64,000 nt of DNA from Escherichia phage HMD-P3. The stretch lies in sequence record PQ462667.1; one strand, 5' to 3'. Position numbers and translations under genes: made by a program. This document shows, one piece after another, positions 27,816 to 56,515 of this stretch. Position 1 is the stretch's first letter, and each line of letters starts with the position of its first letter. The notes beneath the pieces are model-generated. The model did not search any database, was not told the DNA's origin, and was given only the letters and a program-made list of their open reading frames with translations.

Positions 27816-27834
27816 TATTATTACCTCAAATGTT

Positions 27835-28606: not shown

Positions 28607-28624
28607 ACTACATACCCTTTAATT

Positions 28625-28985: not shown

Positions 28986-29064
28986 TGGTGGGTCGCCTGG
29001 GACTCGAACCCAGAACCTTCCGATTAAAAGTCGGATGCTACTAAACCTATTGAGCTAGCAACCC
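28986..29064 (-). tRNA. tRNA-Lys (TTT)
   Basis: Anticodon arm tccga-ctTTTaa-tcgga; T-arm ctggg-ttcgagt-cccag. Confidence 0.7.
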
Positions 29065-29073
29065 AAAATAACT

Positions 29074-29151
29074 TGGTAGCGGGTTCCAGTACTGCCCTGG
29101 ACTTACTTAGCTTATGAGACTAAGAAGAACTCTATGCCTCCCACCCGCAAT
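29074..29151 (-). tRNA. tRNA-like element, anticodon CAT, with non-canonical T-loop (GGCAGUA) and unpaired 1:72
   Basis: Anticodon arm ttagt-ctCATaa-gctaa, D-stem gagg/cttc, T-stem tccag/ctgga, CCA encoded. Confidence 0.35.
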
Positions 29152-29155
29152 TGTT

Positions 29156-29231
29156 TGGTCAGTGCGGCAGGACTCGAACCTGCGACCCGAAGCATCCAAG
29201 GCTCCCACGCTACCAACTGCGCTACGCACTG
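29156..29231 (-). tRNA. tRNA-Pro (TGG)
   Basis: 76 nt; anticodon loop ctTGGat; T-arm gcagg-ttcgagt-cctgc. Confidence 0.7.
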
Positions 29232-29240
29232 TTAATTCTT

Positions 29241-29438
29241 TTATTGTGGAGGAATATTAATAATTCGTCCATCTACACAATAAACGGTACTAGGAATCGT
29301 ACTATATATGTAGAAATTCTTTATATTACTCTCTCCGCCACAGAAATTTTTAGCAAATTCATACTCTTTATTAATGGTTGAGTCAAATTTAAAACAACCA
29401 GTAAGTAGGAATACAGATAGTAATAAAACTTTCTTCAT
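29241..29438 (-). CDS. small lipoprotein
   Basis: MKKVLLLSVFLLTGC (signal peptide with lipobox). Confidence 0.5.
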   Translation of the reverse strand: MKKVLLLSVFLLTGCFKFDSTINKEYEFAKNFCGGESNIKNFYIYSTIPSTVYCVDGRIINIPPQ

Positions 29439-29891
29439 TTAGCTTTCCTTCTCTTCACTTTATAAGATATATTATACAGAGAATTAAGCAGAATAGCAAA
29501 TGAATTTTTAATAAATTTACTTATTGTGTAGGCCACCTGGAGGCTACCAACCCCACGGCTGACAAAGAAGTTTGCGAGACCTCTCTTAAATGCCAGAATA
29601 GACCCGCCGATCTATCGGAACCTACATAATAAGTAAACTTTATAGTGTCATTCTAGACAGGACTCGAACCTGTTATCACTTGTGCGGACTTACGAGAACC
29701 ATTCTTTCACTCGAATCGAACGAGCTTCTGCCCTCGCCAAGCTGGTTTCCCCATCAACCACGCTAGAATGTTTGATTATTTTCAGTGCAAGAGTCCGAGT
29801 CTTGGACACGACCGCTTCGCAAGTACATAGGCAGCTTATCATGAGTCAGCACTTCCGAATTGCTAGCCCCGTGTTCTGCACTGAAATTTTG

Positions 29892-30239
29892 TTAATTTAA
29901 CAGTAAAGTACGATCTACTTCACCATTAATTGTTCGGCATTCTTCTGGGATCTCTGGTGTAGCCTTATATTCCCACCACTCAGAACCGTCATATTCACCA
30001 CGTTCTAACCAAGTTCCGTCAGTAAACCATACATTACCATAAAGCAATTGCCCACCATAACCAGAATCATATTTAAAGTCTAGATTATTTAGAAAATCTT
30101 CAATATCTTTTTCTGTATAACCTACGGGCAATACCCAAACTTCTTTGTCCCCATAATAACCGAATTCTATCTTAATACACTTAACTTCAGAATTAGTATT
30201 CTTTAGGGCAAGTAACAACTCTTCTTTAGCATTAATCAT
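29892..30239 (-). CDS. hypothetical protein
   Basis: 115-aa ORF. Confidence 0.5.
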   Translation of the reverse strand: MINAKEELLLALKNTNSEVKCIKIEFGYYGDKEVWVLPVGYTEKDIEDFLNNLDFKYDSGYGGQLLYGNVWFTDGTWLERGEYDGSEWWEYKATPEIPEECRTINGEVDRTLLLN

Positions 30240-30265
30240 AGCATATTTCTCGTGCTAGTTTAATT

Positions 30266-30342
30266 TGGCGCGACCGATGGGATTTGAACCCACATTCCCT
30301 CCCGTGACAGGGGAGTACCATTACCAAGCCAGCCCCGGTCGC
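30266..30342 (-). tRNA. tRNA-Asp (GTC)
   Basis: Anticodon loop ctGTCac; discriminator G. Confidence 0.7.
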
Positions 30343-30351
30343 ATAATTCAT

Positions 30352-30537
30352 TTACTCAGCTTTGAGTTTTTCAATAGCTGCATTAAGTTCCTTAAGAAAC
30401 TCTTTCCGTACATTAAGCTCTCGAATACTCATTAAAAGATCAGCCTTTCGAGCTTCAATATCTTTTTGTCGGCACTTAATGTTATTAGCTGTGTTATCAC
30501 GATGAACTTCTAACTGTGCAATTACATTCTTGGACAT
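30352..30537 (-). CDS. small coiled-coil protein
   Basis: 61-aa ORF. Confidence 0.4.
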   Translation of the reverse strand: MSKNVIAQLEVHRDNTANNIKCRQKDIEARKADLLMSIRELNVRKEFLKELNAAIEKLKAE

Positions 30538-30639
30538 GCTTGTTTCCTCAGTTATTAATGAAAATGGTATCTGTGGCTGAATTCGATGTCAGCAATGATA
30601 GCTGGTTGGCTACCGGCTTACTTAACTCTACACAGAATT

Positions 30640-30722
30640 TGGCGGGCCGTGTAGGATTCGAACCTACGTTGTCTTTCGACACGGATTAACAATCCGCCAC
30701 CAAACCGCTTGGCTAACGACCC
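30640..30722 (-). tRNA. tRNA, anticodon GTT (Asn?) with unusually long variable region
   Basis: Anticodon arm gcgga-ttGTTaa-tccgt; T-arm gtagg-ttcgaat-cctac; 83 nt. Confidence 0.5.
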
Positions 30723-30730
30723 TAAAAATT

Positions 30731-30806
30731 TGGACGACCGCATGAGATTTGAACTCACATAAAAAGGATTTGCAATCCTTCGCCTAAGCCATTCAGCCAA
30801 CGGTCG
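30731..30806 (-). tRNA. tRNA-Cys (GCA)
   Basis: Anticodon arm aagga-ttGCAaa-tcctt; discriminator U as in tRNA-Cys. Confidence 0.7.
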
Positions 30807-30875
30807 ATTTATCTTGTTCTGCCATGTTGCTTCTCCAGTTCAATTTATGTAATTATTATACAGAACTTTTGTAAA

Positions 30876-31163
30876 CTAAGCAACTACATTTTTTAAGAAT
30901 TTGATGCCTTTCTTTTTCTTCTTATATTTCCACGTTAAGGGATTCTGTCGATTATGAACGCTTGAGATCTTCGTCTCATCAAAGTTCTTCAATATCATGT
31001 AATCACAAGATAGTTGTTCTAGTGGAATGTGATCACCGTCAAAAGCATATACATAAGGCTGTTGACTAGCACGATAATGATAGACTTTGTTAATTCTACG
31101 TTTCAGCGACTTATCCGCGCAGTAAATAAAGAAATTTTCAGGATGCATCAGCAGCTCCTTCAA
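30876..31163 (-). CDS. hypothetical protein
   Basis: 95-aa ORF. Confidence 0.45.
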   Translation of the reverse strand: MKELLMHPENFFIYCADKSLKRRINKVYHYRASQQPYVYAFDGDHIPLEQLSCDYMILKNFDETKISSVHNRQNPLTWKYKKKKKGIKFLKNVVA

Positions 31164-31165
31164 AT

Positions 31166-31240
31166 TGGTGCACCCTGTTCGTATCGAACGAACCTCTCAA
31201 GCTCTTCAGGCAAGCGCTAATCCATCTCAGCTAAAGGTGC
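31166..31240 (-). tRNA. tRNA, probable Phe (GAA)
   Basis: Acceptor, D-stem and T-arm (gttcg-ttcgata-cgaac) are good; anticodon stem has two mismatches in my reading. Confidence 0.5.
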
Positions 31241-31246
31241 AAATTT

Positions 31247-31322
31247 TGGCAAACCTACTAGGACTCGAACCTAGACCGTACGGTTTTGGAGACCGACATG
31301 CTGTCCAGTAACACTCTAGGAA
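31247..31322 (-). tRNA. tRNA, probable Trp (CCA)
   Basis: Anticodon loop ctCCAaa and T-arm ctagg-ttcgagt-cctag are good; acceptor pairing poor in my reading. Confidence 0.4.
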
Positions 31323-31331
31323 TGCAGAAAT

Positions 31332-31406
31332 TGGTACACCCACGGAGAATTGAACTCCGATTCTCAGATTGAAATCCTGATGTCCTAACCATTAGACGAT
31401 AGGTGC
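31332..31406 (-). tRNA. tRNA-Glu (TTC)
   Basis: D-arm tcgtctaatggttaggaca resembles E. coli tRNA-Glu; anticodon loop atTTCaa. Confidence 0.6.
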
Positions 31407-31937
31407 ATTAACTATTTCTTTATTAACTTTCTGTACTAAATGTTCCAAGCCAGAAAGTTTATTAATTTGTTCAAATATTTTATTTAGTTTTCTCTGAGGC
31501 AACTTAACCCATTCATGGTCCCTATCTTGATAGAGGCTATGGACAAACTTTTCGCCTTCCTTTCTATCAAACCAGAAAGACCAGTGTAGCATTGTATAGT
31601 CCCTAAAAGGGCTATATGTTTGATAGTTTGCTAAGCGTTTCTTTGGGTTAGCTGACATACCAATCTTAAAATAATTGGGCCAGGCCTTATTTGCTATAAA
31701 ATATATGAAGCCTTCTTTTATGGGAAGTTTATTTTCTTGCTTAAATTTAATTAAGGATAAGCACAATAGTTTAACATTATATCTAAGATCTCCTAAGGAG
31801 ACTTTCTTAGCCTTTGTATTACTTAACTCTAAGTAAACTTTCGAGCATTCAACTATTAAATCTGGAGTTATATCAAACTCCTTAGTTTTTGTTATTATCT
31901 GTCTTTTTTGAAGCTCATTTATTAACTTATTGTGCAT
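31392..31937 (-). CDS. T5orf172/GIY-YIG-like domain protein (homing-endonuclease-like)
   Basis: GFIYFIANKAWPNYFKIGMS...YQTYSPFRDY; paralog of 28106..28606. Confidence 0.65.
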   Translation of the reverse strand: MHNKLINELQKRQIITKTKEFDITPDLIVECSKVYLELSNTKAKKVSLGDLRYNVKLLCLSLIKFKQENKLPIKEGFIYFIANKAWPNYFKIGMSANPKKRLANYQTYSPFRDYTMLHWSFWFDRKEGEKFVHSLYQDRDHEWVKLPQRKLNKIFEQINKLSGLEHLVQKVNKEIVNAPIV

Positions 31938-31955
31938 ATTACTTCCTTAGTAATT

Positions 31956-32036
31956 TGGTGGGGGATGGAGGACTCGAACCTCCGCGTGATATACCCGGTC
32001 TACAGCCAGGCGCCGTCGCCACTGAGCCAATCCCCC
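31956..32036 (-). tRNA. tRNA-Tyr (GTA)
   Basis: Acceptor gggggat; anticodon arm cctgg-ctGTAga-ccggg; long variable arm. Confidence 0.65.
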
Positions 32037-32225
32037 ATATTTGAATGAAAAGTAAGTCGGTTAAACTCAAGGTGGAATATTTCAGGATTTCCTGACTTTA
32101 CCCCTAAAGGCAACTCGCCTAATTACTTCTCATTCAGATATGTTTCCAAATTAGATAAATATTATATCAAGTTTTATAGTATTGGGCAAGTCAAATTTTA
32201 AAGAACTTGCCCAATGCTGTATTAG

Positions 32226-32501
32226 TTAGTCGAACTTAGGAGTGACAGTTAAGGAGAACGGAAGTTCAAAAACTTCTTCGCCCTCATCACTAACAGTGAT
32301 TACACGACCTTTAAGTTCAGACATTGAAATATCAATATCAGCTTTTGCATCTGGAGCCATGCCAGCTTCAACACATTTAGCTTTAATTTCCGGCAGAAGT
32401 TCTACATCGTAGAAATAAAGCCATTCAATCTCACCTTCCCAGCCTTCCCAGGATTTACAGATTGCACTTTCAATACCAGCTGCTATAACACGATTTTGCA
32501 T
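32226..32501 (-). CDS. hypothetical protein
   Basis: 91-aa ORF with promoter/leader module upstream. Confidence 0.5.
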   Translation of the reverse strand: MQNRVIAAGIESAICKSWEGWEGEIEWLYFYDVELLPEIKAKCVEAGMAPDAKADIDISMSELKGRVITVSDEGEEVFELPFSLTVTPKFD

Positions 32502-32591
32502 TCGTTAACTCCTTCATCAATTTATACAACTATTATACCAGAAATTTAAAGCAAAAGGCAAGTACATTTTTAAAAATTCTGTTTGGAGGAG

Positions 32592-32798
32592 CTAAACTCC
32601 AGATTCTTCAGCCAAGTCTAGACTAATAAGAGATATAGCCATAATTGCCGCTCCATGTTCTTTTTCTCCAGTCTCTTTAGCTAGAGTTATAATGTCAAGA
32701 AATTGCTTATGAAAATCTGCAACCTCTTGAGTTATACCTGCCTCAGCAATCATGCCTTTAAGCATGAAACGTTGTGCTGTAATTTCAGGATTAGCCAT
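32592..32798 (-). CDS. hypothetical protein
   Basis: 68-aa ORF. Confidence 0.4.
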   Translation of the reverse strand: MANPEITAQRFMLKGMIAEAGITQEVADFHKQFLDIITLAKETGEKEHGAAIMAISLISLDLAEESGV

Positions 32799-32973
32799 GT
32801 TGTTTCTCCAGTTTCATCTTTAATAATCTACAAATAAAATCAATGTCTTCATCCGTGCCTAGATCTCTGTCTTCAAGAGTTGCCTTGAAGTTTTTAGTCA
32901 ATTCCATGAGGATAACTTCCCTAGAACGACGTGTTGGCGGAGGTGGATGTCTATACATCTTATTTCCTTAATT

Positions 32974-33050
32974 TGGTAGGGGTGGTGGGATTCGAACCCA
33001 CAAAACCTGAATTTTAAGTCCAGTACCTATGCCAATTCGATTACACCCCC
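32974..33050 (-). tRNA. tRNA, anticodon TAA (Leu-UAA-like) with short variable arm
   Basis: Anticodon arm ctgga-ctTAAaa-ttcag; T-arm gtggg-ttcgaat-cccac; 77 nt. Confidence 0.5.
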
Positions 33051-33151
33051 ATGTAATCAGTTTATTAGTTGATACATATTATAGCCTAGTGAAAATCCTA
33101 CTACTAGTCCTACAAACCAACCAATATAATAATCTTTTAGTTTCACAGGTA

Positions 33152-33337
33152 TTATCCTCGTTCAATATCTAGGGAAATACCGCAGTTAGGATTAATACCT
33201 GTACCCTTGCAATTTGGGCAAACCCAGATATTGCAAAAAGTATCTCCTGCTTCTGCATCAGAACTTTCACCAATTCCCCTACACTCAGGGCAGGCACATT
33301 CTTCTAGCTCTTGCTTGAGTTCTTGAAACTTAGACAT
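33152..33337 (-). CDS. zinc-ribbon protein
   Basis: CPECRG...CPNCKG. Confidence 0.45.
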   Translation of the reverse strand: MSKFQELKQELEECACPECRGIGESSDAEAGDTFCNIWVCPNCKGTGINPNCGISLDIERG

Positions 33338-33346
33338 AAAGTCTCC

Positions 33347-33535
33347 TTAGTCAATTACTTTTGAGGCTTCAAGGTAGTCGATATAGTGTACGTTTTCTAC
33401 CGTAATCATATAATCAGCCACTTTATCCATAGCTTGGGCTTCAGAGGTAGCTCTGGCTAACCTATATCCTTTTTTATATTCATCCGGGTATTCTCTATCT
33501 TGAATAAACACAACATAAACTATATATAGATCCAT
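33347..33535 (-). CDS. hypothetical protein
   Basis: 62-aa ORF. Confidence 0.4.
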   Translation of the reverse strand: MDLYIVYVVFIQDREYPDEYKKGYRLARATSEAQAMDKVADYMITVENVHYIDYLEASKVID

Positions 33536-33553
33536 TTGTGACCTCTATTTAAT

Positions 33554-33631
33554 TGGTGGCTCCCCGAGGATTCGAACCTACGTACCTTCCGGTTATGAGC
33601 CGGGTGCTCATACCATATGAGCTTGAGAACC
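33554..33631 (-). tRNA. tRNA, anticodon CAT (Met or Ile2)
   Basis: Acceptor ggttctc/gggagcc (G-U pairs), D-stem gctc/gagc, anticodon loop ctCATaa. Confidence 0.55.
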
Positions 33632-33637
33632 AAAATC

Positions 33638-33726
33638 TGGCGGAAGAAGTGGGAATCGAACCCACAAGGCTATATTTCAAACCGACAGATTAGCAATCTG
33701 CTGCAATACCGTTATGCTATTCTTCC
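33638..33726 (-). tRNA. tRNA-Ser (GCT)
   Basis: Long variable arm; anticodon arm gcaga-ttGCTaa-tctgt; T-arm gtggg-ttcgatt-cccac. Confidence 0.65.
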
Positions 33727-33747
33727 GAATTTATAAGATATATTATA

Positions 33748-34317
33748 TTAGAAATTTAGCTTCATAGCAAGAAAATTTTTCAAGTTTTCGGTAGACATCT
33801 CATCCACATCTACAGGAGAAACAAATCCATTTAATTGTCTAGCAAACTTTTCACCAGCAGGATCGTTGTCCCCAACAGCTACTAATTTGAAAGGTAATAA
33901 TTTCAGTTGCTTTAATAACGCTTTTCCTGGAGAAGAACCCAGCATTGCCAGGGCTGGATAACCAGCATTATGTAATGCAACTGCCTTAAATACAGATTCA
34001 GCAATCAATACTACTTTTTCATCTCCATTGAGAGTTTCTAGTCCCCATACACACTGTGTAGTGGAGTAGGTAAAATATTTAGCCTCAAAGGGGCACTTAC
34101 CATGCCCTTTTGGAGCAGAAGGATTATACGTCTGATAGCCCCGCAACATCCCAGAGAAGTCATACAATGGGACTGTTAGCCACCCTTCCGGGCTTAACCA
34201 GCAATGATATTTATCTGTATCAAATCCTCTAGATAAGAGGTGCTGTGTTAGCTCATCAACATTCATATTTGGTTCCTCTCTCAAATTTATAGATATATTA
34301 TACAGAGAATTTAGCAT
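33748..34317 (-). CDS. Toprim-domain-like protein (189 aa)
   Basis: VVLIAESVFKA ... LVAVGDNDPAGEKFA matches the Toprim E...DxD layout; call by motif only. Confidence 0.45.
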   Translation of the reverse strand: MLNSLYNISINLREEPNMNVDELTQHLLSRGFDTDKYHCWLSPEGWLTVPLYDFSGMLRGYQTYNPSAPKGHGKCPFEAKYFTYSTTQCVWGLETLNGDEKVVLIAESVFKAVALHNAGYPALAMLGSSPGKALLKQLKLLPFKLVAVGDNDPAGEKFARQLNGFVSPVDVDEMSTENLKNFLAMKLNF

Positions 34318-34441
34318 TCAAGCAATCAAATTTTTTAACTTTTTAGAGGAAAATCATAGGGCACTTAAGGGTAGCAGATAAGTGGTGAGGACCAAAATTT
34401 GTGACTCCACTAAAAATCCGGGGGCAATTTTTAAAGACCCC

Positions 34442-34470
34442 TTGACATTTTTGTTGGGGTAGTGTAAAGT
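34442..34470 (+). promoter_or_regulatory. sigma70-like promoter (TTGACA-N17-TAAAGT) for the plus-strand island
   Basis: Read directly upstream of 34533; differs from the TTGCTT/TATAAT early module. Confidence 0.45.
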
Positions 34471-34532
34471 ATATGTTATGGATGAGTGATCAAAGAGACA
34501 CACATTTTCTATATACTAGGAGGTGTCAAAAA

Positions 34533-35525
34533 ATGACAGAAGAAGTAGCTAAGAGTCCTGAGACCGTCGCTAGCGTTGCAGCAGAACTGCACCGTCACGA
34601 GGAATCAGATAAGAAAAAGTGGGAGAAGGTCAGAGCCTACGAAGAAAAACATCGTGAACACGATGAAGATGATGAAGAAGATGACGATGATGAACATTGT
34701 CATAAATATGGAAAACATAAAATGCAAGAACCAGTAAACGTATTCACTAGTGGCTTCCCTGGCCTAATGGGCGGTTACCCAGCAAACGCAGGTGCTTTTG
34801 GTGGTGAAGGTATGGGTCTATTCGGAGCTATCCTAATCGGTGCTCTATTAACAGGCGGATTCGGTGGTTTCGGTGGATTCGGTGGACGTGGTGTAGTTGG
34901 TGATGGTAGCGCAGTTGATGCAGTGCTTCAGAATCAAGATACCGCTAGTATTCTAGCAGCTATTAACACTACTCGTACAGAAGCTAATCAGGGTACTGGA
35001 GCTGTTTTAAGCGCAGTTAATAATGGTTTTAGCCAGACATCCCAAAACCAGAGCCGTGATACTCAGTCTGTACTAACTACGATCTATGGTACGGGTGCTA
35101 ATCTGTCTAATCAAATCTGCCAGGAAACTCGCAACGTTATTCAGGGTCAGTTCGATCTTTCTCGCCAGATTGATCAATCTTTCGCAGCTAACCAGATAGC
35201 TCGTGCACAAGATAAGTTTGATTCTGCACAGATCGCTTTCCAGCAGACTTTACAAACTAATAACCAGTTTGCAGCTGTTCAGGCTCAGATGTGTGCTAAC
35301 CAGAACTCTCTGGAACGTCAGATCGCTGAATGTTGCTGTGAACTTCAGACTGCGATCGCTGGTGTAACTACTGCACGTATCCAGGACGAGTTAGACGCAT
35401 GTCGCCTACGTGAAGCAATCGCTGCGGGTAGTGGTGCTAACGGTCAGGTAATTAATCAAATCGCTTTAAGTCTTGGTGCTATCACTCAGACTCTGGCTGG
35501 TCTGCAGGCTAAACTGCCGGCTTAA
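34533..35525 (+). CDS. acidic N-terminus / glycine-zipper hydrophobic segment / Q,N,S,T-rich protein
   Basis: Start moved to the ATG behind taggaggtg; DEDDEEDDDDEH tract, GMGLFGAILIGALLTGGFGGFGGFGG, long polar low-complexity tail, CCCE; E. coli-like codon usage. Confidence 0.65.
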   Translation: MTEEVAKSPETVASVAAELHRHEESDKKKWEKVRAYEEKHREHDEDDEEDDDDEHCHKYGKHKMQEPVNVFTSGFPGLMGGYPANAGAFGGEGMGLFGAILIGALLTGGFGGFGGFGGRGVVGDGSAVDAVLQNQDTASILAAINTTRTEANQGTGAVLSAVNNGFSQTSQNQSRDTQSVLTTIYGTGANLSNQICQETRNVIQGQFDLSRQIDQSFAANQIARAQDKFDSAQIAFQQTLQTNNQFAAVQAQMCANQNSLERQIAECCCELQTAIAGVTTARIQDELDACRLREAIAAGSGANGQVINQIALSLGAITQTLAGLQAKLPA

Positions 35526-35546
35526 TATTAAGGGGAGGAGCCCATT

Positions 35547-35963
35547 ATGAGTAAATATGGTTTTGTAAATAACGGACTTAATCAAAGTATGGGCTCCCAG
35601 CAGCCCATTCCAGGTCTGGATAACCCCTACTTACAACAGTTGCAACAGCGTTTAGCAGAAGCGCAACAGATGCAGCAACAACTCCAGCAAAATCCTAGAA
35701 GTGTGAGTCCTATACAAATGATGCAGCAAATGAGCGGGCAGTCGCAAATGCCTCAACAAATGCAGCAACAGATGCCGCAGCAGCAAGTTCAGCAACAAAC
35801 CCAACAACCGCAGGTTTCTGCGGAAGGACAGGCAGTACTAGCCCTTTTCGAAGACTTCGCAAAGACAGAGGATGGGAAGCAGCTTGTATCACTTATGGGT
35901 AAGTTTAATAGCTTCTGCCAAAGCCAAATTGCAAAAGCTCAAAATAGCGGTGATAACTCCTAA
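35547..35963 (+). CDS. glutamine-rich protein
   Basis: Q-rich runs (QQLQQRLAEAQQMQQQLQQ, MPQQMQQQMPQQQVQQQTQQPQ); RBS aaggggagga. Confidence 0.6.
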   Translation: MSKYGFVNNGLNQSMGSQQPIPGLDNPYLQQLQQRLAEAQQMQQQLQQNPRSVSPIQMMQQMSGQSQMPQQMQQQMPQQQVQQQTQQPQVSAEGQAVLALFEDFAKTEDGKQLVSLMGKFNSFCQSQIAKAQNSGDNS

Positions 35964-35972
35964 GGAGGAATT

Positions 35973-36167
35973 ATGTGTTGCAGAAAATCTGTTTCGTGCT
36001 GCCCAATGCCTGTAGCACGTTGTTGCTCTCCAGCAATGTTTACGCAAATACCGGCGTTCAATCCGTTTGCCTTTAAGCCTACTCTTATCCTGCCCCCTAG
36101 AGTAGATTTTCAGTCAAGATTGGCCTCCCGTATGGGTGGTTGCTGTACACCGAGAGTGTGGTTCTAA
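35973..36167 (+). CDS. Cys-rich small protein
   Basis: MCCRKSVSCCPMPVARCC...GGCC; RBS aaggagga. Confidence 0.5.
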   Translation: MCCRKSVSCCPMPVARCCSPAMFTQIPAFNPFAFKPTLILPPRVDFQSRLASRMGGCCTPRVWF

Positions 36168-36180
36168 ACCAAAAAACAAA

Positions 36181-36213
36181 AGCCCCTGCCGAAAGGTAAG
36201 GGGCTTTTTCTTT
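36181..36213 (+). terminator. rho-independent terminator
   Basis: gcccct-gccgaaaggta-aggggc followed by ttttt. Confidence 0.65.
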
Positions 36214-36217
36214 TGCC

Positions 36218-36259
36218 TTAAATACAGAAAAGCCCGCGCTCTCAGAGGAAACGCGGGCT
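36218..36259 (-). terminator. rho-independent terminator (convergent)
   Basis: agcccgcg-ctctcagaggaaa-cgcgggct with a T-run on the minus strand (plus aaatacagaaa). Confidence 0.6.
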
Positions 36260-36283
36260 TGGTTAGAAGATTACGTGTAACTA

Positions 36284-37231
36284 TTACTTGTTACGCATAT
36301 CCATGATCATTTGACCATCGTAGCCAGTACCTACCACAGTCTGAGGCACACCACCTTGATACTTCTGAGCACGAATCATTTCAACTTCCAGTTGCTTCCA
36401 GCGAATCATCTCAGGAGTAATGGTACGTTGCAATGCGGCGTTAGCTTCAGCTTCTTTTTTAGCTGCGTACAGTTTAGCATCTGCGTCACGTTCATTAGCA
36501 ATAGCTTGGTTGTTGCGAGCTTCACGATCTGCTTCTGCTTGTTTAACTTTTTGCTGTGCTTCCTGTTCAACGCGGGCAAGTTCAGCTTTCGCAGCGTTAA
36601 CTTGCTCTTCACGAACTTTGGTATTCTGTACCTGTTCCATGATTACCGGTGGCAAAGTAATATCCTGAAGAAACACCTGCTTAACTGTGTAACCATATGG
36701 GCGTGCATACTCTTCAACTTCCTGTTGAATTGCAGTTTGCAATTGAGCCTGAATTTTAGCATCAAACAAATCTTGTGCTTTAGGTACAGACTTACCAAAC
36801 TCACGAATAGTAGACAGTAATTTTTCAGTTACATATTTGTCTAATGCTTGATCCTGGGTACCTGCATTAATACGGTTAATCGGTGCCTTAGAACCATCAA
36901 ACTGCAACATAACAGTCAGGTCAACAGTGGATTTAAACTTATCCTGACTAGGAACCTGAAGTTTATCTAATTTTAGAGCAATATCTTTAGTACTAAAAGT
37001 ATCGAAAGAAGCAAAAGGATTTACAATATGAAAGCCGGGTAATACTGGGCTAGGGTCAACTTTACCCAGGAAAGTCTGGGTTTTAACAGTACCGTCTTGG
37101 ACAACAGTATAAGAGTTAAGAGCCAGAACTAAACCTACCAAACCAACTGCAGCACCAATACCCCAACGTTTGATATTACGCATTAATTTTTGCTCATAAG
37201 TCAGTTCTTTAGTGTTTTTAGTAGCAAACAT
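36284..37231 (-). CDS. SPFH/band-7 (prohibitin/HflC-like) membrane protein
   Basis: N-terminal transmembrane helix WGIGAAVGLVGLVLAL, central domain, C-terminal Ala/Glu/Gln-rich coiled coil. Confidence 0.55.
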   Translation of the reverse strand: MFATKNTKELTYEQKLMRNIKRWGIGAAVGLVGLVLALNSYTVVQDGTVKTQTFLGKVDPSPVLPGFHIVNPFASFDTFSTKDIALKLDKLQVPSQDKFKSTVDLTVMLQFDGSKAPINRINAGTQDQALDKYVTEKLLSTIREFGKSVPKAQDLFDAKIQAQLQTAIQQEVEEYARPYGYTVKQVFLQDITLPPVIMEQVQNTKVREEQVNAAKAELARVEQEAQQKVKQAEADREARNNQAIANERDADAKLYAAKKEAEANAALQRTITPEMIRWKQLEVEMIRAQKYQGGVPQTVVGTGYDGQMIMDMRNK

Positions 37232-37265
37232 ATATTTCCTTTGTTTTAGTTACAGTTAATAAAAT

Positions 37266-37340
37266 TGGCCGAGGTGACAGGATTCGAACCTGCATAAAGG
37301 AATTTAGAAGACTCCTGCCTCTCCCTTAGACTACACCTCG
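37266..37340 (-). tRNA. tRNA-Arg (TCT)
   Basis: Perfect acceptor cgaggtg/cacctcg; anticodon arm ggagt-ctTCTaa-attcc. Confidence 0.6.
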
Positions 37341-52759: not shown

Positions 52760-52801
52760 GCTAATCAGCCGGGTTGCTAGTCGACCTGGCTTTTATTTTA
52801 T

Positions 52802-52830
52802 TTGCTTTCAGCCAAAAATTTATATATAAT
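52802..52830 (+). promoter_or_regulatory. T5-type promoter (TTGCTT-N17-TATAAT) with conserved leader
   Basis: tttgctttcagccaaaaatttatatataat, then agatttataaatttgagaggag-ATG. Confidence 0.6.
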
Positions 52831-52858
52831 AGATTTATAAATTTGAGAGGAGAAAGAT

Positions 52859-53239
52859 ATGGAATTAAAGCCCTATATAGTTGAATCTACATGTGGTAGT
52901 TTCCATCTGGGTGTGGATAATATTGCTGAGGCTGTCTTTGCTGCTACAGGTGATTACTCGCATATAGAGGGTGTTGCATACCCTACCATTATTGGCGATT
53001 GGGTGGGAACAAATCTAGATGTATCGCCTTATAACCCATATTGCTTGTTTGATGAAGACAGAGATGAAGTAAAATGTAATCTTGAATTTGTGTATAATAG
53101 AGTGTTAAAAGTGTACCAACGTAGCCCCAATGGGTACGAAGATATTACTTGGAGTATTAAACAGTATCTTAAAGATATATACTCTAGTTTTTCTGACGAA
53201 GACCTAGAAACAGTTGCAGTGGAGTTTAATAATGACTAA
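52859..53239 (+). CDS. hypothetical acidic protein
   Basis: 126-aa ORF behind the promoter/leader module. Confidence 0.55.
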   Translation: MELKPYIVESTCGSFHLGVDNIAEAVFAATGDYSHIEGVAYPTIIGDWVGTNLDVSPYNPYCLFDEDRDEVKCNLEFVYNRVLKVYQRSPNGYEDITWSIKQYLKDIYSSFSDEDLETVAVEFNND

Positions 53240-53438
53240 GAATGTGAAACACCTTAAATATCGCTTAATTTACAACGGACGTATGGAAACAGAAGATCTG
53301 GCCCAGTTAGCTATTAATTCTAATGAGGTTACAGTACGCGCGCTGGCAATTGAAAAGTTGCGTGCCTCTTATGAAAATCGTGTTATGGAACTAGAGGAGA
53401 AACTTTATGGCATTCTCGAAGCCGATGCTACCAGATAA
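53214..53438 (+). CDS. hypothetical protein
   Basis: 74-aa ORF. Confidence 0.45.
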   Translation: MQWSLIMTKNVKHLKYRLIYNGRMETEDLAQLAINSNEVTVRALAIEKLRASYENRVMELEEKLYGILEADATR

Positions 53439-53628
53439 GGGTTTAAACGCCGCTTTGGAAAACGCATTAATGCAGCGCTGGGAAACTGGCTATAAGGATG
53501 GTGTTGAATCCTGCGCTACTATGCTAGAAGTTATTGCTAATACCTTAATGGAGAAAGGCAATAAAGAATTAGCTGAGCTATTAGACAGTATTGGGCAAAA
53601 CTTCAGAGAACAGGTGAAAAATGCGTAG
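53407..53628 (+). CDS. hypothetical protein
   Basis: 73-aa ORF. Confidence 0.45.
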   Translation: MAFSKPMLPDKGLNAALENALMQRWETGYKDGVESCATMLEVIANTLMEKGNKELAELLDSIGQNFREQVKNA

Positions 53629-54436
53629 ATTAATTATTATTAGTGGTGCAGGTTTGAGTGTTGAAAGTGGTGTACGAGCTTTTCGTACTGATACTGCTAG
53701 CGGTAAAGCATTGTGGGATGATTATGATCTAGAAGAAGTATGTAATATTCATGCCTTTCGCGGTAATTTTTATCATAAAACCCATATGTTTTACAACAAG
53801 CGTCGTGAAGAACTAAAAACTGTTGAACCCAATCTTGCGCATTTGCGTATTGGTGAATGGTATAAACAATATCCAGGTCAAATAGTAAACTTGACTACCA
53901 ATGTTGATGACCTTATTGAGCGTGCTGGCGTTCCACATAGTGACATTCTGCACATTCACGGATATTTAAAAGAGGTTGTTGTAGCTGATAACTACAATAG
54001 TAGCAATAAACGGATTATTGATGTAGGATACAATTCTATTGATCCAGATGATTATAAATGGGTTAAACCTAATGTAATCTTCTTTGGAGAGCATGCTCCA
54101 GCATATGCGGAGATGTACAATGTTTTTGATGGTATTACCAGTCAAGATATGATCATTGTGGTTGGTTGCTCCAACCAAGTAATTAACTTCTACTGGGAAT
54201 TATTTCCTGTTCTTAATTTGACTGCTGCTAAGCTAATGGTTGTTAACTACTATGATAGTGCCCTAGCGGTGGAACCGGGCTATCAAGGTATGACTCGTAG
54301 TGAGATGTATCAACTGGAAGAACGTGGTATCCCTTACTGGAGTAAAGGTGCGGTAGATGCTTTCAGTGATCCTGATTTTATTGCTCGTGTAGAAGCTCAT
54401 TTAGGGGGTAGACCTTATGTATCAGGAACTAAGTAA
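53621..54436 (+). CDS. Sir2-family NAD-dependent deacylase-like protein
   Basis: IISGAGLSVESGVRAFR (sirtuin Rossmann motif), NVDDL, IFFGE. Confidence 0.7.
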   Translation: MRRLIIISGAGLSVESGVRAFRTDTASGKALWDDYDLEEVCNIHAFRGNFYHKTHMFYNKRREELKTVEPNLAHLRIGEWYKQYPGQIVNLTTNVDDLIERAGVPHSDILHIHGYLKEVVVADNYNSSNKRIIDVGYNSIDPDDYKWVKPNVIFFGEHAPAYAEMYNVFDGITSQDMIIVVGCSNQVINFYWELFPVLNLTAAKLMVVNYYDSALAVEPGYQGMTRSEMYQLEERGIPYWSKGAVDAFSDPDFIARVEAHLGGRPYVSGTK

Positions 54437-54929
54437 TACTCCAATTATTTTTCTAGACATTGATGGGGTGCTCAATTCGAGCATCTCCCACCATCATGCA
54501 CCTGATAATGAAAAGATTTTCTTTGGAAGTGACTGGGTTTTCAAACCGCTTCTCAAGGCTTTTCAGGACTTTATTCGTCCTTCTCCAATAATGATTGTTG
54601 GAGTATCATCTTGGTTCTCTGTCAGAAATGAGATGGAGAACGTTCAGATTATGACCGGATTAGGTCTTATCGATCGCTTTCTTGGTACAACGGATTTTAC
54701 TGGTGGTGGATTATCTAGGGGTAATTCTGTTCTTCGTTTCGTCGAAAAGCATAAGCTCAAACATTGGTGTGTACTTGATGATGCGGGTGCTATGATGTAT
54801 CAGTATCCAACGGTTATAGTCAACGGTAGAACTGGGATAAATCTTCAAGATTTAAAAGCTGTTAGCTATATGCTAGAATTTAGCCCAGATCTTGAAATGT
54901 GTAAATCCTTACAACAATTTAAGGTGTAA
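54417..54929 (+). CDS. HAD-superfamily phosphatase-like protein
   Basis: N-terminal IIFLDIDGVLN (HAD motif I). Confidence 0.5.
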   Translation: MYQELSNTPIIFLDIDGVLNSSISHHHAPDNEKIFFGSDWVFKPLLKAFQDFIRPSPIMIVGVSSWFSVRNEMENVQIMTGLGLIDRFLGTTDFTGGGLSRGNSVLRFVEKHKLKHWCVLDDAGAMMYQYPTVIVNGRTGINLQDLKAVSYMLEFSPDLEMCKSLQQFKV

Positions 54930-54931
54930 AT

Positions 54932-55360
54932 ATGTTCAATAATGTATTCTCTAAAGAAGCTAACCCAATTTTGGTTAACTTTTGGCGTACTCTCCCGGCT
55001 AGCCTGTATAATGAGGCTATTAACTCCTTGAAAATATGGTGTGAGAATAACGAAATCTCTTTTGCTTTTAAAGATGATGTTGATGAGGCCCCTTGTATTG
55101 GTTTAAGTGTGCAGGTAGAGGAGGGTCTTGAAGAGATTGTCGGCTGGAAAGAGTTAGATGAAATGGGCTTAGTTTTTGCGTTAAACTATAAGCTGTTTAT
55201 GCCTGCTAAGCATCGCCTCGTTGTTAACTATAAAACTAGTGAATCTCCTGGTTTTCAGGTTAATGAACGTTATGGTTGGTCTTACTCACCGGAAGAAGTA
55301 AATGAGGGGATTCAGAAACTTCGACGTTTCGGGTATATAATCCCAGGTTTAACTGCTTAA
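54932..55360 (+). CDS. hypothetical protein, paralog A
   Basis: Shares PCIG...W.EL...GL..ALN and C-terminal G(Y/I)..PGL(T/S) with 55370..55759. Confidence 0.55.
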   Translation: MFNNVFSKEANPILVNFWRTLPASLYNEAINSLKIWCENNEISFAFKDDVDEAPCIGLSVQVEEGLEEIVGWKELDEMGLVFALNYKLFMPAKHRLVVNYKTSESPGFQVNERYGWSYSPEEVNEGIQKLRRFGYIIPGLTA

Positions 55361-55369
55361 GGAGGCAGA

Positions 55370-55759
55370 ATGGAACAAGTATATTGGCGTCAGATTGACC
55401 CTAGTTTGGTGAAACGTGCGGAGAAGCTGCTACAACGTTGGTTGGGGGTAAGACAAGCCTCCTTTACTTTTCCGGAACAGCAAATAGATGACCCCTGCAT
55501 TGGTGTTTTCCTGTCTGGATATGCCGGGGAATGGGAATTGGATTGGAATGAATTGTCTGCTATGGGCTTGATTGTTGCCCTAAACTTCTCTATATTCCAT
55601 CCACGTGGTTTGGCCATATGTCGTGTGCCGGATGATGGTTGTTCGCCCCATCTTTTACAGGTGGAAGATGATATTTGGGAGTACACTCCAGATATTCTCA
55701 AAGAAGCTAAAGAACAATTAAACCGTGTTGGGATCTATGTTCCGGGGTTAAGTGACTAA
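55370..55759 (+). CDS. hypothetical protein, paralog B
   Basis: Tandem paralog of 54932..55360. Confidence 0.55.
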   Translation: MEQVYWRQIDPSLVKRAEKLLQRWLGVRQASFTFPEQQIDDPCIGVFLSGYAGEWELDWNELSAMGLIVALNFSIFHPRGLAICRVPDDGCSPHLLQVEDDIWEYTPDILKEAKEQLNRVGIYVPGLSD

Positions 55760-55785: not shown

Positions 55786-55812
55786 ACCGAGTCATTTTGG
55801 CTCGGTTTTCTC
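55786..55812 (+). terminator. rho-independent terminator
   Basis: ccgag-tcattttgg-ctcgg followed by ttttc. Confidence 0.6.
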
Positions 55813-55853
55813 TATGCTCAAGGACACTGATAGCACCTTTGGGAAAATTTTAC

Positions 55854-55882
55854 TTGCAGGATGCCCAAAATCTTGATATAAT
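55854..55882 (+). promoter_or_regulatory. T5-type promoter (TTGCAG-N17-TATAAT) heading a 650-nt leader
   Basis: ttgcaggatgcccaaaatcttgatataat. Confidence 0.5.
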
Positions 55883-56515
55883 ATTTATATTGAATTGAGA
55901 GACATTAGTAAAAATTGATTTTGCTAATTTTTCTTGTTTACAATCCGCGATACGGAACAGTTAGGCTGCCCCATTAAGGGTTGTTTTAACTGTTACGTGT
56001 TAGTTTTTAAACAAATAATTAATAGAATACTTAGCGATCTACATCCCGTAGGAACCCTGGTAAGGCCTCGAAGCAACCTAGTGTGAGGTGGTTGTGAAGT
56101 GAGACGGGAAGAGTGAAAAACTCTGAGAAGTGATGACGTAAGGTATACTGCATCTAGTATGAGCTAGTATATGAAGCATTAGGTGAGCAAATCTGGCTTA
56201 GCGGCCATCCTCAAGGATTTGTGCGGTATAGTGAAGCGGCAGTGTAGCGTGAAAGGGGAAGTTGCCACCCCCCTTCAGTATTTGCGATTAATTGTTGAGA
56301 AATTGACAGTAACAGTTGTTCTATTCTTTCTGAATAGTCCTAAAGAAAACTTATTTCATTTCCAACACAGGAGTATTGTTGTGTTCTCAATCCTACAAGG
56401 TCATGCAGGATTTCATCGCGATTTAGCCACAGGCAATTGGCGGGAAGTTAAAGCAGAAAACTATCTTTTTGCTAAAAGATTTTCCTCAAAGCATCCTGAA
56501 GGTAAACCAGCTTCA

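What the first reader, a model, noticed from the sequence alone, without database searches (positions are those of the whole stretch)
53621..55759. Operon of Sir2-like protein, HAD-like phosphatase and two tandem paralogs
A sirtuin-fold protein (GAGLSVESGVRAFR) is translationally coupled to a HAD-motif protein (FLDIDGVLN) and then to two paralogous about 135-aa proteins (shared PCIG...ELxxMGLxxALN...PGL) with no recognisable motifs. The same phage carries an NAD-dependent ligase, so a Sir2-family enzyme may tune NAD or ADP-ribose pools, or counteract host NAD-depleting defences. The duplicated proteins may be specificity or inhibitor subunits.
Basis: partly seen in the sequence, partly recalled or inferred. 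Interest (0 to 1): 0.5.

Follow-up and report, generated by a model that had tools for sequence, protein, structure and literature searches.

The report
T5 phage sirtuin–phosphatase–DUF7415 early operon
This is the well-conserved early operon of T5-like phages (T5 genes T5.102–T5.107) encoding a zinc-less CobB-type sirtuin, a "Swiss-army-knife" HAD phosphatase and two tandem-domain DUF7415 proteins; it is real but already annotated, already predicted in print to be an NAD-dependent RNA-repair module, and still untested.

Summary
Window 53621-55759 carries four tightly packed + strand genes: a Sir2 protein (Pfam SIR2, E 2e-24), a HAD phosphatase (HAD_SAK_2, E 8e-20) and two paralogs (32% identity, E 1e-20). 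The paralogs do have a recognised family: both match Pfam DUF7415.

The window is a Tequintavirus, about 96-97% identical to many sequenced phages. The genes are T5.102 and T5.105-T5.107. The transcription unit has seven genes (52859-55759), not four.

New here:
- The sirtuin is catalytically intact, lacks the zinc cysteines, and is closest to CobB/SIRT5 deacylases. It has no PADLOC defence-model hit and no defence-type NADase among its top 50 structural neighbours.
- Each paralog is a tandem of two DUF7415 domains. The second copy keeps the family's polar signature; the first has systematically lost it.
- Across divergent T5-like phages, Sir2 and DUF7415 stay adjacent through rearrangements. 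HAD and NrdD are optional.
- The orthologous sirtuin in rV5-like phages sits inside an RNA ligase-cRec-kinase cluster.

Iyer et al. 2022 already predicted this sirtuin clade, including the T5-like Sir2+HAD arrangement, to be a KptA-like RNA 2'-phosphate remover. Tuning of NAD pools or countering NAD-depleting defences has no support. The feature is known and its function is untested. Interest is modest.

The parts
52767..52791 (+). Intrinsic terminator after nrdD. It marks the upstream boundary of the transcription unit.
   Evidence: Terminator scan. The same feature is annotated in T5 and Lindwurm.
52803..52831 (+). Sigma-70-like promoter (TTGCTT-N17-TATAAT) ahead of the first small ORF.
   Evidence: Read from the sequence. 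A promoter is annotated at the same place in T5. Coordinates are approximate.
52859..53239 (+). Small ORF 1 (126 aa, acidic), T5.100 homologue, unknown function.
   Evidence: phrog_11748, unknown function. No Pfam family.
53233..53438 (+). Small ORF 2 (about 68 aa from the ATG, pI 11), unknown function. It overlaps ORF 1 by 7 nt.
   Evidence: (phrog_5236).
53407..53628 (+). Small ORF 3 (73 aa), unknown function. It overlaps the Sir2 start by 8 nt.
   Evidence: (phrog_5827). It is not similar to the small ORF that precedes Sir2 in rV5-like phages.
53621..54436 (+). Zinc-less class-III-like sirtuin (T5.102 homologue). It carries GAGxSxxSGxxxFR, TNVD, the catalytic H113-G114, and Y58/R61, which correspond to CobB Y92/R95.
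   Evidence: Pfam SIR2 E 2.3e-24. Best PDB sequence match is E. coli CobB, E 1.8e-17. Invariant residues. AF2 model pLDDT 90. Foldseek top hits are CobB, Sir2Af1 and SIRT5. No significant PADLOC defence-model hit.
54417..54929 (+). Swiss-army-knife-type HAD phosphatase (T5.105 homologue). Motifs are intact: D14-x-D16 nucleophile motif, S64, R101, D122-D123.
   Evidence: Pfam HAD_SAK_2 E 7.6e-20. Alignment of phage homologues. No solved homologue by sequence.
54932..55360 (+). DUF7415 paralog A (T5.106 homologue): two DUF7415 domains plus a C-terminal helix. Its second domain has lost the family's polar signature.
   Evidence: Each half matches Pfam DUF7415 on its own, at 74.8 and 55.1 bits against a cut-off of 27. 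Systematic replacements at D58, N60, S63, H77, G80, A82, R85 and D100 in 29 first-copy orthologues.
55370..55759 (+). DUF7415 paralog B (T5.107 homologue): two DUF7415 domains plus a C-terminal helix. Its second domain keeps the canonical signature DWN..S..GL....N....HP.G.A..R....G.S.......D..W.Y.
55786..55806 (+). Intrinsic terminator closing the operon.
   Evidence: Terminator scan. Annotated in T5 and Lindwurm.

Best explanation
This is an early-expressed accessory operon of T5-like phages built around an NAD+-consuming sirtuin.

Most likely role, as already proposed for this sirtuin clade by Iyer et al. 2022: healing of cleaved RNA, probably tRNA.
- The sirtuin would use NAD+ to take a 2'-phosphate (or a similar anionic group) off an RNA end, as KptA/Tpt1 does.
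- Where present, the SAK-type HAD phosphatase would clear a terminal RNA phosphate or dephosphorylate the ADP-ribose-phosphate by-product.
- The DUF7415 proteins are lineage-specific partners of the sirtuin. In the two-copy form, a ligand- or partner-binding canonical copy may pair with a degenerate scaffold copy.

Shown here:
- Domain identities and intact catalytic motifs.
- Operon structure.
- Tandem-domain architecture and asymmetry of the paralogs.
- The conserved Sir2-DUF7415 adjacency.
- The RNA-repair neighbourhood of the orthologous sirtuin in rV5-like phages.

Inferred: the substrate, the chemistry on RNA, any physical Sir2-DUF7415 complex, and the role of the HAD enzyme.
For: 1. In rV5-like phages the orthologous sirtuin (50-62% identity) sits in a co-directional cluster: metallophosphoesterase, Rnl1-type RNA ligase, cRec (PF20274), P-loop kinase, Sir2, DNA ligase. 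I saw this in Vequintavirus, Mydovirus, Henunavirus and about a dozen metagenomic phage contigs.

2. In T5-like phages the neighbour is HAD_SAK_2, the standalone phosphatase family assigned to phage RNA repair (PMC7824862).

3. A further lineage (L073) has Sir2 and HAD_SAK_2 2.4 kb apart.

4. PMC9503650 section 3.7.3 describes these same configurations. It names Escherichia phage SP15, a Tequintavirus, and adds a jumbo-phage type with 2H, Nudix, cRec and PIN. It proposes the KptA-like role.

5. The catalytic His, the NAD-binding motifs and the anion-binding Y..R pair are invariant.

6. The phage carries 22 tRNA genes in this window and an SPFH/Band-7 gene beside tRNA-Arg, so it has much RNA to protect.

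7. Sir2 and long-form DUF7415 stay adjacent when gene order is inverted (L159), when HAD is moved (L155) or absent (L009, L010, L013, L070, L157), and when NrdD is absent (L010, L159).

8. A single-domain DUF7415 gene directly follows RNA ligase RnlA in Aeromonas phage Ah1, 2 kb from a HAD_SAK_2 gene.
Against: - No RNA ligase, polynucleotide kinase or cRec is in this locus or in the T5 annotation of the regions I read. Sealing would have to rely on host enzymes.
- HAD is missing next to Sir2 in about half of the divergent T5-like lineages sampled.
- In sequence and predicted fold the sirtuin is nearest to true protein deacylases (CobB, SIRT5). It keeps the FGE loop and the Y..R pair that those enzymes use for acidic acyl-lysines.
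- Phapecoctavirus-type phages carry the same sirtuin with no RNA-repair neighbours.
- The locus also lies among nucleotide-metabolism genes (nrdD, nrdAB, thy, frd). HAD_SAK_2 in T4-like phages sits between td and nrdA.1.
- The Sir2-DUF7415 link is confined to one phage family. None of the roughly 30 Sir2 loci outside the T5-like group has a DUF7415 domain.
- DUF7415 proteins are acidic (pI 4.3-4.7), which does not suggest direct RNA binding.
- No experiment exists for any of these proteins.
Confidence: 0.35

Rival explanations
1. Protein deacylase. The sirtuin is a CobB-like NAD-dependent lysine deacylase, probably preferring acidic acyl groups such as succinyl or malonyl. It would remodel host or phage protein acylation early in infection. 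HAD and DUF7415 would be unrelated early accessory proteins or modulators.
For: - Closest sequence and structural relatives are CobB, Sir2Af1 and SIRT5.
- Y58/R61 align with CobB Y92/R95 and are invariant. The FGE loop, catalytic His and NAD-binding motifs are kept.
- Many phages carry the sirtuin without RNA-repair neighbours.
- Earlier authors proposed this role for related zinc-less phage sirtuins (PMC5107563).
Against: - All four zinc cysteines of the small domain are absent.
- There are repeated, independent gene-neighbourhood links to RNA-end processing enzymes (PMC9503650).
- It does not explain the tight, rearrangement-resistant pairing with DUF7415.
Confidence: 0.3
2. Nucleotide or NAD-metabolite handling. 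The module acts on small molecules rather than macromolecules. Examples: the sirtuin makes or consumes an ADP-ribose derivative or acts as a phosphoribosyl-transferase as once proposed for CobB; HAD acts as a nucleotidase or ADP-ribose-phosphate phosphatase; DUF7415 acts as a small nucleotide-binding sensor or sponge. This includes the first reader's idea of tuning NAD/ADP-ribose pools or interfering with NAD-derived defence signals.
For: - The locus lies between nrdD and the replication genes, next to nrdAB, thy and frd.
- Single DUF7415 domains are fused to MazG-like dATP/dGTP pyrophosphohydrolase (twice) and to thymidylate kinase. They also lie beside nrdD and near nudE in T4-like phages.
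- The tiny domain has invariant polar residues (N, H, R, S, D), which is compatible with ligand binding.
- HAD_SAK_2 sits between td and nrdA.1 in Aeromonas phage Ah1.
Against: - The sirtuin does not resemble NADase-type defence sirtuins.
- A net NAD consumer would compete with the phage's own NAD-dependent ligase.
- In phiCTX-like P2 prophages DUF7415 sits in a late-operon slot between head and tail/lysis genes, unrelated to nucleotide metabolism.
- There is no structural match to the solved chains searched, which would include any deposited sponge proteins.
Confidence: 0.15
3. No joint function. The genes are independent accessory early genes kept together only by shared ancestry within one phage family. 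DUF7415 would be a free-standing small acidic anti-host or anti-defence protein.
For: - The Sir2-DUF7415 link is seen only in Demerecviridae-type phages.
- The single DUF7415 domain is a promiscuous phage domain found in many unrelated positions and fusions.
- HAD and NrdD come and go.
Against: - The adjacency survives inversion of gene order and loss or relocation of neighbours.
- The long two-domain form of DUF7415 was found only next to Sir2.
- The genes overlap or abut within one transcription unit.
Confidence: 0.2

Closest known systems
T5 genes T5.102, T5.105, T5.106, T5.107 and their orthologues in hundreds of Tequintavirus/Epseptimavirus genomes
   Same: Same genes, same order, same flanks (nrdD upstream, replication-origin-binding protein downstream). 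The region is 96-97% identical at nucleotide level to KPP2018, Lindwurm and others, and the Sir2 protein is about 94% identical to T5's.
   Different: This window lacks the two small ORFs (T5.103/T5.104) that separate Sir2 and HAD in T5 itself, so here Sir2 and HAD overlap.
Phage sirtuin-centred predicted RNA-repair systems (Iyer, Burroughs, Anantharaman, Aravind 2022, PMC9503650, section 3.7.3, configuration 3, 'Escherichia phage SP15')
   Same: Same sirtuin clade and same neighbour, a SAK-type HAD phosphatase. SP15 is a Tequintavirus. I reproduced configuration 2 (RNA ligase, cRec, kinase, MazG) in rV5-like phages.
   Different: The passages of the paper that I read do not mention the DUF7415 pair. 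In my sample DUF7415 is a more constant neighbour of the T5-like sirtuin than HAD is. The proposal is computational and untested.
E. coli CobB / human SIRT5 (class III sirtuin deacylases)
   Same: Rossmann fold, NAD-binding motifs, catalytic His, FGE loop and the Y..R acidic-acyl pocket pair. These are the best sequence and fold matches.
   Different: Only about 26-28% identity. All four zinc-binding cysteines are missing. QNID is changed to TNVD. There is an extra C-terminal segment of about 60 residues. The substrate is unknown.
KptA/Tpt1 RNA 2'-phosphotransferase
   Same: Proposed to work alike: NAD+ is attacked by a phosphate oxygen, nicotinamide leaves, and ADP-ribose cyclic phosphate is formed. 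Comparable accessory enzymes lie nearby in the related phage systems.
   Different: Unrelated fold (ART superfamily versus sirtuin). No sequence similarity. The activity has never been shown for a sirtuin.
Single-domain DUF7415 proteins of P2-like, phiCTX-like and T4-like phages (for example the P2 orf91-position protein)
   Same: Same roughly 50-residue domain with the DWN..S..GL..N..HP.G.A..R..G.S..D signature.
   Different: Those have one domain (62-94 aa) or are fused to other enzymes. The T5-like proteins have two domains plus a C-terminal helix and lie next to Sir2.

Membership tests
Sirtuin (Pfam SIR2 PF02146), class III CobB/SIRT5-like | Profile match above the curated threshold | tested here: met
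   86.8 bits against a cut-off of 24, covering profile positions 1-178 of 180. PHROG 2162 E 9.5e-120.
Sirtuin (Pfam SIR2 PF02146), class III CobB/SIRT5-like | NAD-binding GAGxSxxSGIxxFR motif, N and D of the QNID motif, catalytic His of HG | tested here: met
   G9-A10-G11, S13, S16-G17, F21-R22, N94, D96 and H113-G114 are invariant in 31 phage homologues. Q is replaced by T93.
Sirtuin (Pfam SIR2 PF02146), class III CobB/SIRT5-like | Y-x-x-R pair that binds acidic acyl groups (CobB Y92/R95, SIRT5 Y102/R105; residue numbers from established literature) | tested here: met
   FYNKRR aligns with CobB FYNARR. Y58 and R61 are invariant.
Sirtuin (Pfam SIR2 PF02146), class III CobB/SIRT5-like | Four-cysteine zinc-binding module in the small domain | tested here: not met
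   There are no cysteines in the aligned region, in any of the nine phage sequences aligned to CobB. The same was noted for other phage sirtuins in PMC5107563.
Sirtuin (Pfam SIR2 PF02146), class III CobB/SIRT5-like | Overall fold like solved deacylase sirtuins | tested here: met
   AF2 model pLDDT 90.4. Foldseek top hits are CobB (E 9e-18, target-normalised TM 0.84), Sir2Af1 and SIRT5.
Sirtuin (Pfam SIR2 PF02146), class III CobB/SIRT5-like | NAD-dependent lysine deacylase activity | not testable with these tools
   Needs an enzyme assay.
Defence-type SIR2 NADases (ThsA, DSR1/2, SIR2-HerA, SPARSA) | Match to defence-system SIR2 models or closest structural neighbours among them | tested here: not met
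   No significant PADLOC hit. None appears among the top 50 PDB fold matches.
HAD_SAK_2 (PF18143) phosphatase | Profile match above the curated threshold | tested here: met
   72.1 bits against a cut-off of 27.5, covering profile positions 1-138 of 139.
HAD_SAK_2 (PF18143) phosphatase | HAD catalytic motifs: DxD nucleophile/acid pair, S/T, K/R, acidic pair | tested here: met
   D14-I-D16, S64, R101 and D122-D123 are conserved among the phage homologues. The one exception is a protein whose annotated start cuts off the N-terminus.
HAD_SAK_2 (PF18143) phosphatase | Activity on RNA terminal phosphates | not testable with these tools
   This is a prediction from gene context in PMC7824862 and PMC9503650. 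No solved or assayed relative was found.
DUF7415 (PF24187) | Profile match above the curated threshold | tested here: met
   126 and 111.6 bits for the whole proteins. The four halves scored separately give 60.5, 55.4, 74.8 and 55.1 bits against a cut-off of 27.
DUF7415 (PF24187) | Conserved polar signature of the single-domain family (D, W, N, S, G, L, N, H, P, G, A, R, G, S, D) | tested here: met
   Met by the second domain of paralog B. Not met by paralog A or by the first domains.
Sirtuin-centred phage RNA-repair system (PMC9503650) | Member of the phage-specific sirtuin clade | tested here: met
   50-62% identical to the rV5/Mydovirus sirtuins named in the paper. The named homologues among the 120 best listed are phage proteins or hypothetical proteins from Salmonella assemblies; most carry no name.
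Sirtuin-centred phage RNA-repair system (PMC9503650) | Neighbouring RNA-end-processing enzyme (SAK-HAD, cRec, 2H, kinase, ligase) | tested here: met
   HAD_SAK_2 overlaps the Sir2 stop. No ligase, kinase or cRec is present in this locus.
Sirtuin-centred phage RNA-repair system (PMC9503650) | Removal of RNA 2'-phosphate with NAD+ | not testable with these tools
   Never assayed. Needs biochemistry.

The most novel reading that the evidence does not exclude
The zinc-less phage sirtuin works as a complex with the DUF7415 proteins. The canonical DUF7415 domain binds the substrate or an NAD-derived ligand, and the degenerate paralog acts as scaffold. The complex would carry out NAD-dependent chemistry on RNA ends (2'-phosphate removal), not on acyl-lysines. 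That would be a new catalytic use of the sirtuin fold and would define DUF7415 as a new class of sirtuin partner subunit.
Probability: 0.15. Interest if true: 0.7.

Novelty: already known. Interest (0 to 1): 0.3.

Why it matters
If the published prediction is right, this operon would show a sirtuin acting on RNA rather than protein. That would be a convergent counterpart of KptA/Tpt1 and would explain how tRNA-rich virulent phages such as T5 cope with host RNA-cleaving defences. T5 is a genetically tractable model phage, so the question can be tested directly.

The additions made here sharpen what to test: DUF7415 as the constant partner, its tandem-domain architecture, and the canonical/degenerate pairing of the two copies. 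They also correct misleading database labels. The HAD protein is labelled 'Sir2' and the DUF7415 proteins are labelled 'tail tube protein'.

As a discovery in this window, however, the locus is ordinary. It is the same as in hundreds of sequenced T5-like phages.

Tried and rejected
- **Defence-type NADase reading of the sirtuin.** Rejected: no significant PADLOC hit, and the fold neighbours are deacylases.
- **Internal duplication of DUF7415 by hhalign of the two halves.** Not significant. Scanning each half separately against Pfam settled that both are DUF7415 domains.
- **Shared small ORF upstream of Sir2 in T5-like and rV5-like phages.** No similarity.
- **DUF7415 next to Sir2 outside T5-like phages.** None in the roughly 30 such loci. 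The genome-contig scan found only one single-domain hit.
- **Structural ('tail tube') role for the paralogs.** Not supported. The genes sit in the early region between nrdD and the replication genes, behind a sigma-70-like promoter. The label appears only in some auto-annotated records.
- **NAD-rebuilding genes (NadR/PnuC, NARP3) in the one region I checked, 33.7-38.6 kb.** Not found.
- **Literature.** No paper mentions DUF7415. Burroughs and Aravind 2016 was not held. The CRISPRi-ART and transposon-mutagenesis papers say nothing on these genes.
- **A first greedy gene-caller for the P2-like loci** lost the small genes and was replaced.
Full report
**What the window is**

The 2.5 kb around the finding is 96-97% identical to many Tequintavirus genomes, including Klebsiella phage KPP2018 and Escherichia phages Lindwurm and SUT_E1520. 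In all, 457 phage records match and 220 cover at least 80% of the query. In T5 itself the genes are T5.102 (Sir2), T5.105, T5.106 and T5.107. They lie between nrdD (T5.099) and the replication-origin-binding protein (T5.108). So this is the standard early-region locus of T5-like phages.

**Checking the observation**

The four ORFs are at the stated coordinates. Pfam gives:
- SIR2 (E 2.3e-24) for the first.
- HAD_SAK_2, 'HAD domain in Swiss Army Knife RNA repair proteins' (E 7.6e-20), for the second.
- DUF7415 (E 6e-37 and 2e-32) for the last two.

The last two are paralogs: 32% identity over 125 residues, E 1e-20.

From the sequence, Sir2 and HAD overlap by 20 nt, HAD and the first DUF7415 gene are 2 nt apart, and the two DUF7415 genes are 9 nt apart with AAGGAGG before the second start.

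Terminator-like hairpins lie at 52767-52791 and 55786-55806. A TTGCTT-N17-TATAAT site lies near 52803-52831. These agree with the terminators and promoter annotated in T5 and Lindwurm. The unit therefore has seven genes. Three small ORFs of unknown function (126, about 68 and 73 aa; PHROGs of unknown function) precede and overlap into Sir2.

**The sirtuin**

- *Sequence relatives.* Its best solved relative by sequence is E. coli CobB (1s5p, E 1.8e-17), followed by Sir2Af1/2 and SIRT5. NCBIfam places it with CobB-type deacylases but far below the equivalog cut-offs. The PADLOC defence models give no significant match.
- *Conserved residues.* In alignments of 10 and 31 sequences, the following are invariant: the NAD-binding GAGxSxxSG..FR motif, N94 and D96, the catalytic H113-G114, the FGE loop, and Y58/R61. 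FYNKRR aligns with CobB FYNARR. By the established numbering, Y58/R61 are therefore the counterparts of CobB Y92/R95 and SIRT5 Y102/R105, the pair that binds acidic acyl groups.
- *Zinc module.* All four zinc cysteines are absent in the nine phage sequences aligned to CobB, and Q of QNID is T. The lack of zinc ligands in phage sirtuins, T5 included, was already noted in PMC5107563.
- *Predicted fold.* An AlphaFold model (pLDDT 90.4) is most similar to CobB (Foldseek E 9e-18, target TM 0.84), Sir2Af1 and SIRT5. No defence-type NADase appears in the top 50.

The enzyme is thus predicted to be catalytically competent.

**The HAD protein**

It covers the whole HAD_SAK_2 profile. It keeps D14-x-D16, S64, R101 and D122-D123. 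No solved relative is detectable by sequence.

RefSeq and PHROG 18062 label this protein 'Sir2'. That is an annotation error.

Iyer et al. 2021 (PMC7824862) describe the SAK family as a usually standalone linear phosphatase of phage RNA repair.

**The paralogs**

- *Architecture.* Each half of each protein matches the 53-position DUF7415 model on its own, at 60.5, 55.4, 74.8 and 55.1 bits against a cut-off of 27. Each protein is therefore a tandem of two DUF7415 domains followed by a helix and the PGL tail. My own hhalign of the halves was not significant. The AlphaFold model (pLDDT 87) shows a repeated strand-helix-strand-strand unit.
- *Distribution.* An exhaustive profile search found 165 relatives. 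Full-length two-domain forms occur only in T5-like contigs. The second domain alone is widespread, as 60-95 aa phage and prophage proteins and as a module fused to other domains: MazG-like dATP/dGTP pyrophosphohydrolase (two cases), ASCH/DUF3850 (two cases), thymidylate kinase, DUF905, DUF551 and PGDYG.
- *Positions in other phages.* It lies between head-completion gene L and tail gene X in phiCTX-like prophages. It lies just after replication gene A in a P2-like coliphage. It overlaps the end of nrdD in Jiaodavirus. It lies near nudE in Slopekvirus. It lies directly after rnlA in Aeromonas phage Ah1.
- *Signature.* The family has a strict polar signature: DWN..S..GL....N....HP.G.A..R....G.S.......D.
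- *Asymmetry of the two copies.* Across 33 second-copy and 5 single-copy T5-like orthologues the signature is kept. In 29 first-copy orthologues it is consistently replaced: D58G, N60K, S63D, H77M, G80K, A82R, R85V, D100R. Paralog B is therefore canonical. Paralog A is a conserved but degenerate copy.
- *Charge.* All are acidic, with pI 4.3-4.7.
- *Database labels.* 'Tail tube protein' labels in some GenBank records have no support.

**Which genes travel together**

I scanned 74 loci with profiles built here and looked up contigs for the most divergent two-domain DUF7415 proteins.

Arrangements seen in T5-like phages:
- NrdD, small ORFs, Sir2, HAD, DUF7415 x2: Tequintavirus, Epseptimavirus.
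- Sir2, HAD, one DUF7415: My1, L007.
- Sir2 directly followed by one DUF7415, no HAD: L009, L010 (L070 likewise has Sir2 and one DUF7415 without HAD, about 0.4 kb apart).
- Sir2, two DUF7415, no HAD: Sugarlandvirus L013, L157.
- HAD moved upstream of Sir2: L155.
- DUF7415 x2 placed before Sir2, with no NrdD and no HAD: L159.

Sir2 plus long-form DUF7415 is therefore the constant core. HAD and NrdD are facultative.

Outside this phage family, none of the roughly 30 Sir2 loci has a DUF7415 domain within 7 kb.

**The orthologous sirtuin elsewhere**

In Vequintavirus, Mydovirus, Henunavirus and related metagenomic contigs, the sirtuin (50-62% identity) lies in a co-directional cluster: metallophosphoesterase, Rnl1-type RNA ligase, cRec (PF20274), P-loop kinase, a small ORF, Sir2, ATP-dependent DNA ligase and, further on, a MazG-like pyrophosphohydrolase. 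Phapecoctavirus has the sirtuin with uninformative neighbours. Contig L073 has NrdD, NrdG, Sir2 and HAD_SAK_2 within a few kb.

**Precedent in the literature**

After deriving the idea that the sirtuin might replace KptA/Tpt1, I found it already published. Iyer et al. [quoted passage not shown]
1. Jumbo phages, with 2H, Nudix, cRec and PIN.
2. Phage V5/Mydo, with tRNA ligase, cRec, kinase, MazG and calcineurin-like phosphoesterase.
3. [quoted passage not shown]

SP15 is a Tequintavirus, so configuration 3 is this locus. The authors propose that the sirtuin removes RNA 2'-phosphates as KptA does. The passages I read do not mention the DUF7415 genes, and no held paper mentions DUF7415 at all. 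I found no experimental work on any of the four proteins.

**Weighing the explanations**

*For the RNA-repair reading:* there are three independent neighbourhood types. The phage also has heavy investment in RNA, with 22 tRNA genes in the window and an SPFH/Band-7 gene beside tRNA-Arg. From memory, that pairing is one Burroughs and Aravind linked to RNA repair.

*Against it:* T5-like phages have no RNA ligase, kinase or cRec in the locus or in the annotated regions I read. HAD is often absent. The enzyme looks in every testable respect like a class III protein deacylase. The locus is also embedded among nucleotide-metabolism genes.

I therefore give:
- RNA-repair model: 0.35.
- Plain protein deacylase: 0.30.
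- Small-molecule (NAD/ADP-ribose/nucleotide) role: 0.15.
- No joint function: 0.20.

A sirtuin consumes NAD+. The known phage counter-measures rebuild it (PMC13464706).

**Verdict**

The domain calls are right. The operon is larger than stated. The paralogs belong to a named but uncharacterised family.

The locus is already known: it has been annotated since the T5 genome, and the Sir2+HAD pairing already has a published functional prediction.

The modest additions here are the DUF7415 anatomy, the canonical/degenerate asymmetry of the two copies, and the finding that DUF7415 rather than HAD is the sirtuin's constant neighbour in this phage family.

Noticed in passing
window 52859-53628: Three small co-transcribed ORFs (126 aa acidic, about 68 aa with pI 11, 73 aa) precede Sir2 and overlap into it. 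They have no Pfam family and only unknown-function PHROGs. Their presence varies among T5-like phages.
   Followed up: partly
window 54417-54436, compared with T5 (L003 2244-2602): T5 itself and many relatives carry one or two extra small ORFs (T5.103/T5.104) between Sir2 and HAD. This window lacks them, so Sir2 and HAD overlap. This is an indel hot-spot inside the operon; several BLAST hits come as two pieces.
   Followed up: partly
window 54417-54929 and 54932-55759: Database mislabels. The HAD protein is called 'Sir2 (NAD-dependent deacetylase)' in RefSeq T5 and in PHROG 18062. The DUF7415 proteins are called 'tail tube protein', 'tail protein' or 'exonuclease' in several GenBank records.
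   Followed up: yes
window 36284-37231 (-) and 37266-37340 (-): An SPFH/Band-7 protein (T5.080 'lipoprotein' homologue) lies directly beside tRNA-Arg and, in T5, next to the stable 'RNAX'. From memory, an SPFH/Band-7 plus tRNA-like RNA pairing was predicted to be an RNA-repair scaffold (Burroughs and Aravind 2016). This may bear on the RNA-repair reading of the sirtuin operon.
   Followed up: no
window 24757-37340 (-): There are 22 tRNA genes on the minus strand, the T5 tRNA region.
   Followed up: no
window 55807-56381: A non-coding stretch of about 570 nt with promoter-like sites lies between the operon terminator and the replication-origin-binding protein gene. The 995-aa ORF listed from GTG 56183 is probably over-extended; by homology with Lindwurm the start is near 56382.
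   Followed up: partly
L075-L154 (P2-like/phiCTX-like prophage contigs); L160 2758-3210: Single-domain DUF7415 genes occupy accessory-gene slots in P2-family phages. In phiCTX-like prophages the slot lies between head-completion gene L and tail gene X, ahead of the lysis genes. In a P2-like coliphage the domain is the C-terminus of a 150-aa protein right after replication gene A.
   Followed up: partly
P0085, P0088, P0087 (metagenomic proteins): The DUF7415 domain is fused C-terminally to a MazG-like dATP/dGTP pyrophosphohydrolase (PF04447) and N-terminally to a thymidylate kinase. Two other proteins carry ASCH/DUF3850.
   Followed up: partly
L005 3968-6529 (Aeromonas phage Ah1): A T4-like phage has td, HAD_SAK_2, DUF4326 (NrdA.1), DenA, RnlA and a single-domain DUF7415 gene in a row. 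HAD_SAK_2 and DUF7415 therefore also co-localise, with an RNA ligase, outside T5-like phages and without a sirtuin.
   Followed up: partly
L073 1-2897 and L029 4171-6157: In some related contigs the nrdD reading frame is broken into two or three pieces. This suggests insertions, such as an intein, intron or homing endonuclease, in the anaerobic ribonucleotide reductase gene.
   Followed up: no
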